Of a stretch of DNA of 4,366 nucleotides, positions 136-2,405 are shown in pieces (the stretch's first letter is position 1; every line of letters starts with the position of its first letter). This stretch comes from a virus (lineage: Duplodnaviria > Heunggongvirae > Uroviricota > Caudoviricetes), in IMG/VR virus record IMGVR_UViG_3300029253_000163; one strand, 5' to 3'. A program made the translations under genes and the position numbers. The notes under the pieces are model-generated. The model was not told the origin of the DNA, did no database searches, and saw nothing but the letters and a program-made list of their open reading frames with translations.

Positions 136-320
136 TGCCAGCATCCTTTTTGTATCGGACGTAAACGGGCCAGCATTGAAAGAATGCATATTTTATTTAA
201 TAGCTCCCGTTCGTGTTTTCTCTTGTTAATGGCATCTTCAGTAAATACAGGGTTACTGATAGTGACACCAATTTCAAAACAACCTTCAGANNNNNNNNNN
301 NNNNNNNNNNNNNNNNNNNN
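132..320 (-). CDS. dicB: DicB cell-division inhibitor; start codon and first ~10 codons lie inside the masked N run, so 320 is inferred
   Basis: Minus-strand translation of 290..135 gives SEGCFEIGVTISNPVFTEDAINKRKHERELLNKICILSMLARLRPIQKGCWQ, then TGA at 134..132. I recognise this as the C-terminal 52 aa of the 62-aa DicB. Ten missing N-terminal codons place the ATG near 320. The ORF track's plus-strand ORF 58..372 is its antisense shadow. Confidence 0.85.
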   Translation of the reverse strand, partial: XXXXXXXXXXSEGCFEIGVTISNPVFTEDAINKRKHERELLNKICILSMLARLRPIQKGCWQ

Positions 321-351
321 NNNNNNNNNNNNNNNNNNNNNNNNNNNNNNN
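291..351. other. Masked or unknown bases (61 N); hides the dicB start codon and RBS
   Basis: Run of n in the sequence. Confidence 0.95.
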
Positions 352-487: not shown

Positions 488-530
488 AAAAAGGGCGGCA
501 GAGCAGTCACGGAGTAAAACTGATACCGCC
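488..530 (-). terminator. Intrinsic terminator forming the DicF 3' end (GC stem plus U5)
   Basis: On the minus-strand RNA, GGCGG (530..526) and CCGCC (498..494) can pair, followed by UUUUU (492..488). Read-through would be needed for dicB expression. Confidence 0.55.
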
Positions 531-545
531 AAACGTCACCAGAAA
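488..545 (-). ncRNA. dicF: DicF small regulatory RNA (Hfq-dependent antisense sRNA targeting ftsZ and other mRNAs)
   Basis: Minus-strand sequence UUUCUGGUGACGUUUGGCGGUAUCAGUUUUACUCCGUGACUGCUCUGCCGCCCUUUUU matches the DicF sequence as I recall it. It lies between the upstream ORFs and dicB, as in the K-12 dicB operon. Exact 5' end is set by processing and is approximate here. Confidence 0.85.
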
Positions 546-820: not shown

Positions 821-1021
821 ATGACTAAAGAAGAATTTGTCTCTTATATTTTTGATAAAACGGTTGAAATGTATGCCGCTACTTACGGGTCCTGTAATCC
901 TCTGAATAAACCAGAGGGGAAAGATGATTTCGACAAAATTTACCGCTTCTTGGAGGACCGCTATATCAAAAGGTTAGAGGACGCAGGGATCAAATCCCCA
1001 GTGAAGTCACCATTGTCCTGA
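821..1021 (+). CDS. Hypothetical 66-aa hydrophilic protein encoded antisense to the dicB operon
   Basis: ATG at 821 preceded by AAGGA (7-nt spacing); the ORF track's 734 start is an upstream alternative-start extension. Translation MTKEEFVSYIFDKTVEMYAATYGSCNPLNKPEGKDDFDKIYRFLEDRYIKRLEDAGIKSPVKSPLS. Overlaps the 3' end of the convergent 121-aa ORF by 32 nt. No homolog recognised and no clear promoter found. Confidence 0.4.
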   Translation: MTKEEFVSYIFDKTVEMYAATYGSCNPLNKPEGKDDFDKIYRFLEDRYIKRLEDAGIKSPVKSPLS

Positions 1022-1355: not shown

Positions 1356-1383
1356 CGTCAGCCTCATCAGTCAGTGTTTCTGG

Positions 1384-1521
1384 CTAACCAGCAACGCGCG
1401 CCAGATTCGGTTTNNNNNNNNNNNNNNNNNNGGTATATGTCATCGCGGTGAACGTACCGTCCTGGTTGGGGAACACGCCACATACCAGAGATTCGCTGTT
1501 GCCAAGATCGATAGTATCCAT
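1384..1521 (-). CDS. Hypothetical small protein (about 45 aa) in the ydfA position; 6 codons masked by N
   Basis: ATG at 1521 with GAGG 6 nt upstream. Translation MDTIDLGNSESLVCGVFPNQDGTFTAMTYT-(6 masked)-KPNLARVAG, stop TAG at 1386..1384. The track's 1575 start is a GTG extension without an SD. First ORF downstream of the OL-like operators. Confidence 0.5.
   Translation of the reverse strand: MDTIDLGNSESLVCGVFPNQDGTFTAMTYTXXXXXXKPNLARVAG
1414..1431. other. Masked or unknown bases (18 N) inside the ydfA-position ORF
   Basis: Run of n in the sequence. Confidence 0.95.
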
Positions 1522-1599
1522 GCTGACCTCATTTCCCCTTAACGCCGGGGTAGCGGAACTGTTTGCTGAGAACACCGTGCGGTGTCTTGATGGAAAGTA

Positions 1600-1653
1600 A
1601 TTTAGAATAACCTAACATGAGAGGCAAGTGTTTTTTGTTAGATTGATCTAACA
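1600..1653. promoter_or_regulatory. OL-like region: perfect operator TGTTAGA-N4-TCTAACA (1636-1653), a degenerate copy (1600-1617) and a candidate leftward promoter for the ydfA-dicF-dicB operon
   Basis: 1636-1653 is TGTTAGAttgaTCTAACA, extendable to a 26-bp palindrome (1632-1657). 1600-1617 is aTTTAGAataacCTAACA (5/7 and 6/7 half-site matches). On the minus strand TTGCCT-17-TAAATT (about 1624..1596) overlaps the degenerate operator. Same half-sites as the OR operators. Confidence 0.55.
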
Positions 1654-1689
1654 AAAAGGGTGGGCGCAACTAATCACTTGAAAAGAATG

Positions 1690-2097
1690 TTATTTTATTG
1701 ATTTATTTTTACGCGCTTTAAGCATTTCTTCGAAGAGTTTGTTGAAGTTTTCTACTCTTGCGCGCATTTCAGACAGCAAGGCTTCCTGCTCGGAAGATGG
1801 AAGAGCATCGAATAATTCGATCAATTCTTTGTGGTTGGGAGTTAGCTCTGTTTCCACATGAAGTTCTTGTGCAGGCACTGGTGCCTTGTCTTCGTCACCA
1901 AACATTAGCCATGTAGGTGAGCACTTCAGAGCATCCGCTAAAGCAAACAATCGTTTTCCGACTGGCTGGGTTTCGTCTCTTTCCCATTGTGAAATTGTGA
2001 CGTGAGCAACTCCAGCGAGGCGCGCAGCTTCTCGTTGTGTTAAGCGTAATTCTTTTCGTCGCGCCAGAACTCGCTGGCCTAGGGTTCTTGTATCCAT
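1690..2097 (-). CDS. dicA: DicA-type immunity repressor: N-terminal XRE/Cro-C1 HTH, short C-terminal domain, no LexA-like peptidase domain
   Basis: 135-aa ORF with HTH segment LRLTQREAARLAGVAHVTISQWERDE. The C-terminal part (LFALADALKCSPTWLMFGDEDK...NFNKLFEEMLKARKNK) matches recalled E. coli DicA. Divergent from a cro-like gene with palindromic operators on both sides. Confidence 0.9.
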   Translation of the reverse strand: MDTRTLGQRVLARRKELRLTQREAARLAGVAHVTISQWERDETQPVGKRLFALADALKCSPTWLMFGDEDKAPVPAQELHVETELTPNHKELIELFDALPSSEQEALLSEMRARVENFNKLFEEMLKARKNKSIK

Positions 2098-2164
2098 AGT
2101 TAGGTAATTCTAATTTTTCTTGACTTAGGTATCCCGCGCACAATAATGTTAGAAAAGTCTAACA
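2098..2164. promoter_or_regulatory. OR-like divergent control region: perfect operator TGTTAGA-aaag-TCTAACA (2147-2164) and a degenerate operator (2098-2115)
   Basis: 2147-2164 is a perfect inverted repeat over the dicC -10 and start site. 2098-2115 is aGTTAGGtaatTCTAAtt, directly upstream of the dicA ATG and overlapping a minus-strand TAGAAT -10-like hexamer (2112..2107), which would make the dicA transcript nearly leaderless. Confidence 0.6.
2120..2147 (+). promoter_or_regulatory. Candidate sigma70 promoter for dicC (TTGACT -16- AATAAT)
   Basis: -35 TTGACT at 2120-2125, -10 AATAAT at 2142-2147. The start site would fall inside the perfect operator. SD AGAGGGGG at 2165-2172 precedes the ATG at 2178. 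Confidence 0.5.
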
Positions 2165-2177
2165 AGAGGGGGCTTTG

Positions 2178-2405
2178 ATGCTTAAAGTTGACGCAATTAC
2201 TTTTTTTGGCAGCAAAACAAAGCTTGCCAATGCCGCAGGAGTGAGACTGGCAAGTGTTGCTGCTTGGGGGATACTGGTTCCTGAAGGTCGCGCGATGCGT
2301 CTACAGGAGGCATCTGGCGGGGAGCTTCAGTATGATCCCAAAGTTTATGACGAATATCGTAAGACGAAGCGGGCGGGGCGGTTGAACAATGAAAATCACT
2401 CCTGA
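2178..2405 (+). CDS. dicC: DicC, Cro-like regulator
   Basis: ATG at 2178 (the track's 2175 start is TTG) with SD AGAGGGGG. The 75-aa product MLKVDAITFFGSKTKLANAAGVRLASVAAWGILVPEGRAMRLQEASGGELQYDPKVYDEYRKTKRAGRLNNENHS matches recalled DicC. Divergent from the repressor. Confidence 0.85.
   Translation: MLKVDAITFFGSKTKLANAAGVRLASVAAWGILVPEGRAMRLQEASGGELQYDPKVYDEYRKTKRAGRLNNENHS

What the first reader, a model, noticed from the sequence alone, without database searches (positions are those of the whole stretch)
1600..2164. Four copies of a TGTTAGA-N4-TCTAACA operator bracket the repressor gene
Two perfect sites (1636-1653, 2147-2164) and two degenerate sites (1600-1617, 2098-2115) share the same half-sites and 4-bp spacer. 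One pair lies in the dicA-dicC divergent region and one pair downstream of dicA ahead of the leftward operon, as expected for OR and OL. The left perfect site extends to a 26-bp palindrome. Site strength and position suggest DicA binds the dicC promoter most tightly while the degenerate site at its own start could give autoregulation.
Basis: seen in the sequence. Interest (0 to 1): 0.4.

Follow-up and report, generated by a model that had tools for sequence, protein, structure and literature searches.

The report
DicA/DicC prophage operators flanking dicA

Summary
Observation confirmed. Perfect TGTTAGA-N4-TCTAACA dyads lie at 1636-1653 and 2147-2164, and weaker copies at 1600-1617 and 2098-2115. 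The shared core TTAG-N6-CTAA occurs exactly four times in the window (0.06 expected) and nowhere else in 40.5 kb of the matching BL21 region.

The window is the Qin-type immunity region of E. coli B/BL21: dicA (-), dicC (+) and the leftward dicBF operon with DicF RNA. K-12 Qin has the same sites at the same places. Its Oc (TTGTTAGTCATAACTAACAA) binds DicA in vivo, represses dicC and is needed for dicA transcription. About 160 related loci keep the half-sites invariant while the centre varies, so the conserved motif is TGTTAG-N6-CTAACA, not 7-N4-7.

The OR/OL-like layout holds. The weak right site covers the -10 and start of the leaderless dicA transcript, so it is OR3-like. However, K-12 DicA did not bind the equivalent site alone, and DicC (Cro-like) is the likelier ligand. 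Nothing in the sequence ranks the dicC operator as the tightest. All mismatches in the weak sites fall in the outer two bases. A second repressor class uses CCTTAG/CTAAGG with a nearly unchanged DicC. Known system, low interest.

The parts
2147..2164 (.). Right perfect operator (counterpart of K-12 Oc), TGTTAGAAAAGTCTAACA. Starts at the last base of the dicC promoter -10 and covers the predicted dicC start. Centred about -55.5 from the inferred dicA start.
   Evidence: K-12 Oc binds DicA in vivo and one A-to-C change abolishes binding (PMC3441716). Half-sites are invariant in 46 haplotypes while the centre varies.
2098..2115 (.). Right weak site (counterpart of K-12 Oa), AGTTAGGTAATTCTAATT. 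Abuts the dicA ATG and contains the putative dicA -10. OR3-like position.
   Evidence: Found at -18 (window class) or -17 (second class) from the ATG in every related locus. K-12 Oa was not bound by DicA alone.
1636..1653 (.). Left perfect operator, TGTTAGATTGATCTAACA. It is the core of the 26-bp palindrome 1632-1657. It lies 36 nt after the dicA stop and about -45 to -62 from the predicted dicBF promoter start.
1600..1617 (.). Left weak operator, ATTTAGAATAACCTAACA (TGTTAGGTTATTCTAAAT on the - strand). It fills the spacer and overlaps the -10 of the predicted dicBF promoter.
   Evidence: Its TTAG and CTAA are the only invariant columns in an 11-locus stack. Its second base switches to C in the loci whose main operator is CCTTAG..CTAAGG.
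1599..1627 (-). Predicted dicBF promoter (dicBp): -35 TTGCCT at 1627-1622, 17-nt spacer, -10 TAAATT at 1604-1599. Predicted start at about 1591, the A of a conserved CATCAA.
   Evidence: Read from the sequence. The same TTGMCN-17-TAAWYT layout is seen in K-12, Citrobacter, Buttiauxella, Enterobacter and Pantoea loci. It is below the threshold of the scan and is not mapped experimentally here.
2120..2147 (+). dicC promoter: -35 TTGACT, 16-nt spacer, -10 AATAAT.
   Evidence: The K-12 counterpart TTGACT-17-TATCTT has a start mapped by 5' RACE (PMC3441716).
2107..2112 (-). Putative dicA promoter -10, TAGAAT, with the inferred start at 2100, 3 nt before the ATG (near-leaderless mRNA).
   Evidence: TAGAAT (TAGCAT in K-12) is conserved 8-9 nt before the ATG in all loci. 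The K-12 dicA start is 3 nt upstream of the ATG (supplement of PMC4681348). There is no Shine-Dalgarno sequence.
1690..2097 (-). dicA, a 135-aa HTH repressor without a peptidase domain.
2178..2405 (+). dicC, a P22 Cro-like protein.
1367..1521 (-). ydfA-like DUF1391 gene, first gene of the leftward dicBF operon. It is interrupted in the window by the N mask at 1414-1431.
493..544 (-). DicF small RNA gene, a downstream member of the operon controlled by the left operator pair.
   Evidence: RF00039, 76.7 bits.

Best explanation
The four sites are the operator set of a P22-type immunity switch in a Qin-like cryptic prophage.

Shown or strongly supported:
- Dimers of the HTH repressor DicA recognise the dyad TGTTAG-N6-CTAACA.
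- The right perfect site begins at the last base of the dicC -10 and spans the dicC start. Bound DicA therefore blocks dicC and the genes downstream of it. In K-12 the same occupancy is required for dicA transcription.
- The dicA promoter is weak. Its -10 (TAGAAT) and its start lie inside the right weak site.

Inferred:
- The dicA promoter interdigitates with the dicC -35. DicA at the perfect site may therefore help dicA by removing RNA polymerase from dicC, or by contact from about -55.
- The left pair controls the dicBF operon. The weak site lies in the spacer and -10 of the predicted promoter, and the perfect site lies just upstream of the -35 (about -45 to -62). The strong site probably loads DicA onto the weak site, and may also hinder upstream RNA polymerase contacts or read-through from dicA.
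- DicC (Cro-like) reads the inner core TTAG/CTAA, which all four sites keep. DicA also needs the outer TG/CA. The two 'degenerate' sites would then be good DicC sites and poor DicA sites. That gives the opposite affinity orders a bistable switch needs: DicC at the right weak site shuts off dicA.
- Derepression does not go through RecA cleavage, because DicA has no peptidase domain. It goes through the Rem antirepressor, which the same prophage encodes in BL21.
For: - Identity of the locus: the window matches E. coli B/BL21 over 100% of the query, 98.4% identity with the N masks counted. The BL21 annotation lists dicB, ydfD, a DUF1391 gene, the HTH repressor, a Cro/CI protein, YdaT and rem.
- Non-random sites.
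- Orthology with K-12: the half-sites are the same at the same four places, although DicA is only 57% identical.
- K-12 experiments on Oc and Oa: DicA binds Oc in vivo and one base change abolishes binding. Oa and Om are not bound. DicA represses dicC and is needed for dicA transcription (PMC3441716).
- K-12 experiments on dicBp and DicC: dicBp rises 22-fold on dicA deletion and 165-fold on Rem expression (PMC10448788). DicC ChIP-seq peaks lie on either side of dicA, the motif is TT(A/C/T)G..C(G/A/T)AA, and dicA falls 48-84 fold on DicC induction (PMC11430063).
- dicA start: it lies 3 nt before the ATG in K-12.
- Cross-species footprint: there are four sites at fixed offsets in Citrobacter, Buttiauxella and 79 viral contigs.
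- Footprint within the window allele: among 46 haplotypes the half-site columns vary in at most a few haplotypes, against 13-19 at centre positions 8-9. The mean is 1.9 per intergenic column.
- Covariation: loci with DicA helix 2 SQAALGK have CCTTAG-N6-CTAAGG at the Oc place and xCTTAG at the promoter-proximal left site. Their DicC is 92% identical to the window's.
- Structural relatives: the P22 C2 N-terminal domain and P22 Cro. P22 repressor binds an 18-bp dyad whose central 4 bp it does not contact (PMC4267663).
Against: - No binding data exist for this allele.
- K-12 DicA failed to bind Oa alone in vivo (data not shown in the paper). DicA occupancy of 2098-2115 is therefore doubtful unless binding is cooperative.
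- Centre-to-centre spacings are 36 bp (left pair) and 49 bp (right pair). These are not whole numbers of helical turns, which argues against simple side-by-side cooperativity.
- The dicBF promoter and its start are predicted, not mapped. Reg-Seq notes that the DicA site for dicB is low-evidence and its location unknown.
- The two weak sites lie in blocks that are wholly invariant within this allele. There, conservation cannot separate operator function from promoter function.
- The split readout (DicC reads the core, DicA reads the outer bases) rests on two lineages and one overexpression ChIP motif.
Confidence: 0.85

Rival explanations
1. Only the two perfect dyads are operators. The two weak copies are promoter elements: the -10 of dicBp, and the -10 plus start of dicA. 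They resemble half-sites through shared ancestry or A/T-rich -10 composition and bind no regulator.
For: K-12 Oa did not bind DicA in vivo. Both weak sites overlap -10 hexamers. Within this allele they are invariant across the centre as well, as expected for promoter constraint. 2098-2115 is not significant on its own.
Against: TTAG in the left weak site lies in the promoter spacer, where no promoter constraint applies. Yet it and CTAA are the only invariant columns across 11 diverged loci. The second base of that site switches from G to C together with the main operator class. The core occurs only at these four places in 40.5 kb. K-12 DicC ChIP shows binding on both sides of dicA with exactly this core motif. 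K-12 dicBp is strongly repressed although both of its sites are imperfect.
Confidence: 0.12
2. The 26-bp palindrome at 1632-1657 acts as an RNA hairpin, a terminator or stabiliser at the 3' end of the dicA transcript, and not as a protein-binding site.
For: It lies 36 nt after the dicA stop. No other terminator-like site lies between dicA and dicBp. The region folds better than shuffles (-19.2 kcal/mol, z = -3.9).
Against: The stem is A/U-rich and is followed by AAAAAAC, not a U run. The same half-sites recur at the dicC promoter, where the dyad straddles the start. The K-12 site at this place is not a good palindrome (TGTTAGCTATAGCATACA).
Confidence: 0.03
3. The matches are chance similarities in A/T-rich intergenic DNA.
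For: The intergenic regions are A/T-rich. One site has 3-4 mismatches.
Against: 0 of 200 shuffles reach the observed counts. The sites are conserved at fixed positions in more than 150 loci from several genera.
Confidence: 0.01

Closest known systems
E. coli K-12 Qin prophage dicA-dicC operators (Oc, Om, Oa) and the operators at dicBp (Bejar et al. 1986/1988 as cited in PMC10448788; Yun et al. 2012, PMC3441716)
   Same: Orthologous genes, gene order and intergenic layout. The half-sites TGTTAG/CTAACA are identical. The perfect site overlaps the dicC -10. A weak site abuts the dicA ATG. Two sites lie before the dicBF operon, and the distance from the right perfect site to the left distal site is the same 511 bp.
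   Different: DicA is only 57% identical. Here the left distal site is perfect and part of a 26-bp palindrome, whereas in K-12 both left sites have 2 mismatches. No counterpart of K-12 Om was recognisable here. This allele has not been tested experimentally in any paper I found.
Phage P22 immunity region (C2 repressor, Cro, OR/OL operators)
   Same: The DicA N-terminal domain matches the P22 C2 N-terminal domain (E 1e-18). DicC matches P22 Cro. The dyad is 18 bp with a central part that is not sequence-constrained. Repressor and cro are divergent, with a second operator cluster at the leftward promoter.
   Different: The half-site sequence differs. Only two recognisable sites occur per region, 36 and 49 bp apart, not three closely packed ones. 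DicA has a short helical C-terminal part and no S24 peptidase domain, so no RecA-mediated cleavage is expected. P22 residue N46, which reads the centre, is V here (alignment).
Phage lambda OR/OL switch (cI, Cro, PRM/PR/PL)
   Same: The logic is the same. The repressor blocks the rightward and leftward lytic-type promoters and is needed for its own leaderless transcript. A weak site over the repressor promoter is placed like OR3. A Cro-like protein represses the repressor gene.
   Different: The proteins and operator sequences are unrelated at sequence level. The site number and spacing differ. There is no evidence here for cooperative tetramers or OL-OR looping.
Rac (RacR/YdaS/YdaT) and CP-933P (PaaR2/YdaS) cryptic prophage switches
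   Same: A short repressor with a leaderless mRNA sits divergent from a cro-like plus ydaT-like operon, with several operators in a roughly 100-bp intergenic region (PMC11879457, PMC8630535).
   Different: The repressor families and operator sequences are different.

Membership tests
Qin-type DicA/DicC operators | Inverted repeat with half-sites TGTTAG / CTAACA separated by 6 bp, as in K-12 Oc (TTGTTAGTCATAACTAACAA) | tested here: met
   Two perfect copies. The K-12 Oc sequence comes from PMC3441716 and from L002.
Qin-type DicA/DicC operators | Sites at the homologous positions: over the dicC -10, at the dicA ATG, and two between the dicA stop and ydfA | tested here: met
   Pairwise alignment with K-12. 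Fixed offsets of -67, -18, +36 and +72 in 70 or more loci.
Qin-type DicA/DicC operators | Flanking genes are dicA and dicC orthologues, with dicF and dicB downstream | tested here: met
Qin-type DicA/DicC operators | Sequence-specific binding by DicA, with repression of dicC and dicBF | not testable with these tools
   Known only for K-12 Oc (in vivo assay) and K-12 dicBp reporters.
P22-type lambdoid operators | Repressor DNA-binding domain and Cro homologous to P22 C2 and P22 Cro | tested here: met
P22-type lambdoid operators | 18-bp dyad whose central bases are not specified | tested here: met
   The centre (positions 7-12) varies freely while the half-sites are fixed. P22 geometry is from PMC4267663.
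P22-type lambdoid operators | Three adjacent operators per control region, about two helical turns apart, bound cooperatively | tested here: not met
   Only two core matches occur per region, 36 and 49 bp apart centre to centre. Cooperativity is not testable here.
P22-type lambdoid operators | Repressor with a RecA-cleavable C-terminal S24 peptidase domain | tested here: not met
   The 135-aa protein has Pfam hits only to HTH families. The same is stated for K-12 DicA in PMC10448788.

The most novel reading that the evidence does not exclude
The DicA family has at least two operator specificity classes. They differ only in the outer dinucleotide of each half-site (TG..CA versus CC..GG) and in helix 2 of the repressor. 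The Cro-like DicC and the inner core TTAG/CTAA stay the same. If DicC reads only the core and DicA reads the core plus the outer bases, two things follow. First, the 'degenerate' sites are full DicC sites. Second, one DicC could flip the switch of prophages from either repressor class, while repression itself stays class-specific. A second, weaker possibility concerns the perfect site 36 nt after the dicA stop. It may double as a protein roadblock that keeps the terminator-less dicA transcript out of the toxic dicBF operon.
Probability: 0.35. Interest if true: 0.4.

Novelty: already known. Interest (0 to 1): 0.15.

Why it matters
These sites set the threshold at which a cryptic prophage releases DicB and DicF, which block cell division and change phage and sugar uptake. 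They do so in widely used B strains such as BL21, among others. The layout was worked out in K-12 decades ago, so finding it here mainly confirms the annotation. Three small gains come from this work:
- a cleaner motif, TGTTAG-N6-CTAACA;
- placement of the weak right site on the -10 and start of the leaderless dicA mRNA;
- a testable idea that DicA and DicC read different parts of the same dyad.

Tried and rejected
- Terminator reading of the 26-bp palindrome: rejected. The stem is A/U-rich with no U run, and the scans find no terminator-like site there.
- Chance: rejected.
- More copies in the prophage: none. The motif at up to 2 mismatches, and the core alone, were searched in 13.1 kb around the locus and 27.4 kb beyond it. 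Only the four sites appear.
- A third 'middle' operator like K-12 Om: none recognisable between 2115 and 2147 by eye or by the core search.
- OL-OR looping suggested by the identical 511-bp separation in K-12 and the window: not supported. The distance is 517-518 bp in Citrobacter and Buttiauxella and about 550-565 bp in the second class. It simply tracks gene length.
- The genome-contig search also returned Campylobacter loci that match only a 34-residue C-terminal stretch. They were ignored as unrelated to the operators.
- Phage phiES15 (DicA 52% identical) has different sites and was not used.
- Bejar et al. 1986 (PMC311701) is not held, so the original operator names for dicBp could not be checked.
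- Whole-genome motif frequency in a B strain could not be computed with these tools. About 0.34 perfect 12-base sites are expected per 4.56 Mb from base composition.

Full report
**What is in the sequence.**
- 1636-1653: TGTTAGATTGATCTAACA
- 2147-2164: TGTTAGAAAAGTCTAACA
- 1600-1617: ATTTAGAATAACCTAACA
- 2098-2115: AGTTAGGTAATTCTAATT

The first two match TGTTAGA-N4-TCTAACA exactly. No shuffle out of 200 gives even one exact match. At up to three mismatches only 1600-1617 is added.

The four sites share the inner core TTAG-N6-CTAA. It occurs exactly four times in the window against 0.06 expected. It occurs nowhere else in 40.5 kb of the corresponding BL21 chromosome, where 0.78 is expected. The left perfect site is the centre of a 26-bp perfect palindrome, 1632-1657.

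**What the locus is.**
- The window is essentially identical to the Qin-type cryptic prophage of E. coli B strains (BL21, REL606 and others). Coverage is 100% and identity 98.4%, the difference being the N masks.
- The BL21 annotation and family searches give the gene content: a 135-aa HTH repressor at 1690-2097(-), a P22 Cro-family protein at 2178-2405(+), and YdaT-like and replication-type genes to the right.
- To the left lie a DUF1391 (ydfA-like) gene, an unnamed ORF, DicF RNA at 493-544(-), then dicB and ydfD.
- The repressor is 57% identical to K-12 DicA, and the Cro-like protein is 86% identical to K-12 DicC.
- The DicA N-terminal domain resembles the P22 C2 DNA-binding domain (E 1e-18), and DicC resembles P22 Cro.
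- DicA has no peptidase domain. The Rem antirepressor gene is present in the BL21 prophage.

**Relation to what is published.**
K-12 Qin has sites at the same four places:
- a perfect TGTTAGTCATAACTAACA over the dicC promoter;
- a weak site abutting the dicA ATG;
- two imperfect sites between the dicA stop and ydfA.

Yun et al. (PMC3441716) call the first one Oc (TTGTTAGTCATAACTAACAA). They report the following:
- Oc titrates DicA when cloned on high-copy plasmids.
- Chromosomal or plasmid DicA represses a reporter through Oc, and one A-to-C change in CTAACA abolishes this.
- Oc overlaps the dicC -10, with the dicC start mapped by 5' RACE.
- dicA transcription needs DicA.
- Two further sequence-predicted sites in the dicA promoter region, Om and Oa, did not bind DicA in the same assay.

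Other K-12 results:
- Ragunathan et al. (PMC10448788) show 22-fold derepression of dicBp on dicA deletion and 165-fold on Rem expression. They liken dicCp to PR and dicBp to PL.
- A DicC ChIP-seq study (PMC11430063) finds the strongest DicC signal on either side of dicA. The palindromic motif is TT(A/C/T)G..C(G/A/T)AA, and dicA falls 48-84 fold on DicC induction.
- Reg-Seq recovered the DicA site at dicC. It notes that the DicA site for dicB is low-evidence and of unknown location.

The finding therefore rediscovers a described system in a second allele.

**Comparative evidence gathered here.**
Loci encoding DicA relatives were fetched from one-genome-per-species contigs, from phage records and from viral contigs.

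- *Fixed positions.* Wherever the repressor has helix 2 TQR(E/S/Q/D), there is a perfect TGTTAG-N6-CTAACA 67 nt before the dicA ATG and an xxTTAG-N6-CTAACx at -18. In nearly all of these loci there is also a perfect or near-perfect site 36-41 nt after the stop and a weaker one 35-36 bp further on. This holds for Escherichia, Citrobacter, Buttiauxella and 79 viral contigs.
- *Variation within the window allele.* Among 72 loci (46 distinct haplotypes), the half-sites of the two perfect operators differ in at most a few haplotypes. Centre positions 8 and 9 differ in 13-19. The average intergenic column differs in 1.9, and third codon positions of dicA in 2.4.
- *Meaning.* This is the footprint expected of a dimeric HTH protein that reads two half-sites and not the centre.
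- *The left weak site.* In an ungapped stack of 11 diverged loci around it, the only invariant columns are its TTAG and CTAA. The TTAG lies in the promoter spacer, where no promoter constraint applies.

**Promoter geometry.**
- *dicC promoter.* TTGACT-16-AATAAT (2120-2147). The right perfect site starts at the last base of the -10 and spans the start, as in K-12.
- *dicA promoter.* K-12 dicA mRNA is one of five E. coli mRNAs with a leader under 10 nt. Its start is 3 nt before the ATG (PMC4681348 and its supplement). That puts a -10 of TAGCAT (K-12) or TAGAAT (window, 2112-2107 on the - strand, conserved in all loci) six bases upstream of the start.
  - The weak site 2098-2115 therefore covers about -16 to +3 of the dicA promoter. 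This is an OR3-like position.
  - The corresponding -35 would be GGGATA, which is poor. The dicC -35 lies inside the dicA spacer, so the two promoters cannot be occupied together (inference).
- *dicBF promoter.* I predict TTGCCT-17-TAAATT (1627-1599, - strand) with the start at the A of a conserved CATCAA, at about 1591. The same layout is seen in all compared loci, but no experimental start was found.
  - On that reading, the weak left site occupies -9 to -26 and the perfect one -45 to -62.

**How it most likely works.**
Shown in K-12 and inferred here by orthology: DicA at the right perfect site blocks dicC and permits dicA, and DicA represses dicBF.

Inferred:
- Repression of dicBF acts through the weak promoter-proximal site, helped by the strong distal one.
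- The weak sites are the preferred or at least adequate targets of DicC. All their mismatches fall in the outer dinucleotides, while the core that matches the DicC ChIP motif is intact.
- DicC at 2098-2115 shuts off dicA.

A second operator class supports the split readout. Loci whose DicA has helix 2 SQAALGK (as in P22 C2) carry CCTTAG-N6-CTAAGG at the Oc position and xCTTAG at the promoter-proximal left site, in about 75 viral contigs and four genomes or phages. Their DicC is 92% identical to the window's, with a nearly unchanged HTH.

**Caveats.**
- There are no binding data for this allele.
- The negative K-12 result for Oa was for DicA alone and was reported as data not shown.
- The 36- and 49-bp spacings are not integral helical turns.
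- Two lineages make a thin basis for covariation.

- The OR/OL-like arrangement and the identity of the repressor are right.
- 'Tightest at dicC' is not derivable from the sequence.
- Autoregulation through the weak site is positionally sensible. It is contradicted for DicA alone by the only experiment available, and DicC is the better candidate.
- K-12 autoregulation is positive, through the perfect site.

**Novelty and score.**
The system is already known. This is its copy in B-type strains, with identical half-sites. The increments are incremental and partly speculative: the corrected motif, the weak right site placed on the leaderless dicA promoter, the core-versus-outer-base idea, and the two specificity classes. 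Interest 0.15.

Noticed in passing
window 493-544 (-): DicF small RNA gene (Rfam RF00039, 76.7 bits against a gathering score of 48). The leftward operon controlled by the left operator pair is therefore dicBF.
   Followed up: yes
window 291-351 and 1414-1431: Two runs of N. The second is 18 N where BL21 has 16 bases (the coordinate offset changes from 4651 to 4649 across it). The ydfA-like ORF (1367-1521, -) is therefore out of frame in the window. By BL21 coordinates, the first run hides the start of dicB.
   Followed up: partly
window 1521-1591 (-), dyads at 1572-1585 and 1535-1550: The predicted leader of the dicBF operon is almost identical in K-12 and the window, although the operators just upstream differ (columns 1-95). 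It contains two dyads, ACACCG-TG-CGGTGT and CCCC-N8-GGGG, the second preceded by CGCTAC. This could be a nut-like or other RNA element. It was not investigated.
   Followed up: no
window 1642-1647 and 2153-2158; loci L030-L099: Among prophages with 99-100% identical DicA, the centre of both perfect operators takes many forms: at least 5 at the right site and at least 11 at the left. The half-sites stay fixed. This may be neutral drift of unread bases, or tuning of affinity as in P22.
   Followed up: partly
L008-L010, L026, L110-L189: A second DicA class (helix 2 SQAALGK, as in P22 C2) uses CCTTAG-N6-CTAAGG operators at the same positions. Its DicC is 92% identical to the window's.
   Followed up: partly
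window 1654-1689: No terminator-like site lies between the dicA stop and the dicBF promoter, here or in K-12. It is unclear how dicA transcripts are kept out of dicBF. A DicA roadblock at 1636-1653 is one possibility.
   Followed up: no
window 1599-1616 versus 2099-2116: The two weak sites are 89% complementary to each other over 18 nt (I1). They are closer to each other than to the perfect sites, and both contain TTAGAAT. This could reflect a DicC preference or the -10 role at dicA. It remains unexplained for the left site, where TAGAAT is on the non-promoter strand.
   Followed up: no
window 821-1021 (+): A 66-aa ORF on the opposite strand sits inside the leftward operon. It is annotated as a hypothetical protein in BL21 (WP_000159335.1) and has no Pfam hit.
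   Followed up: no
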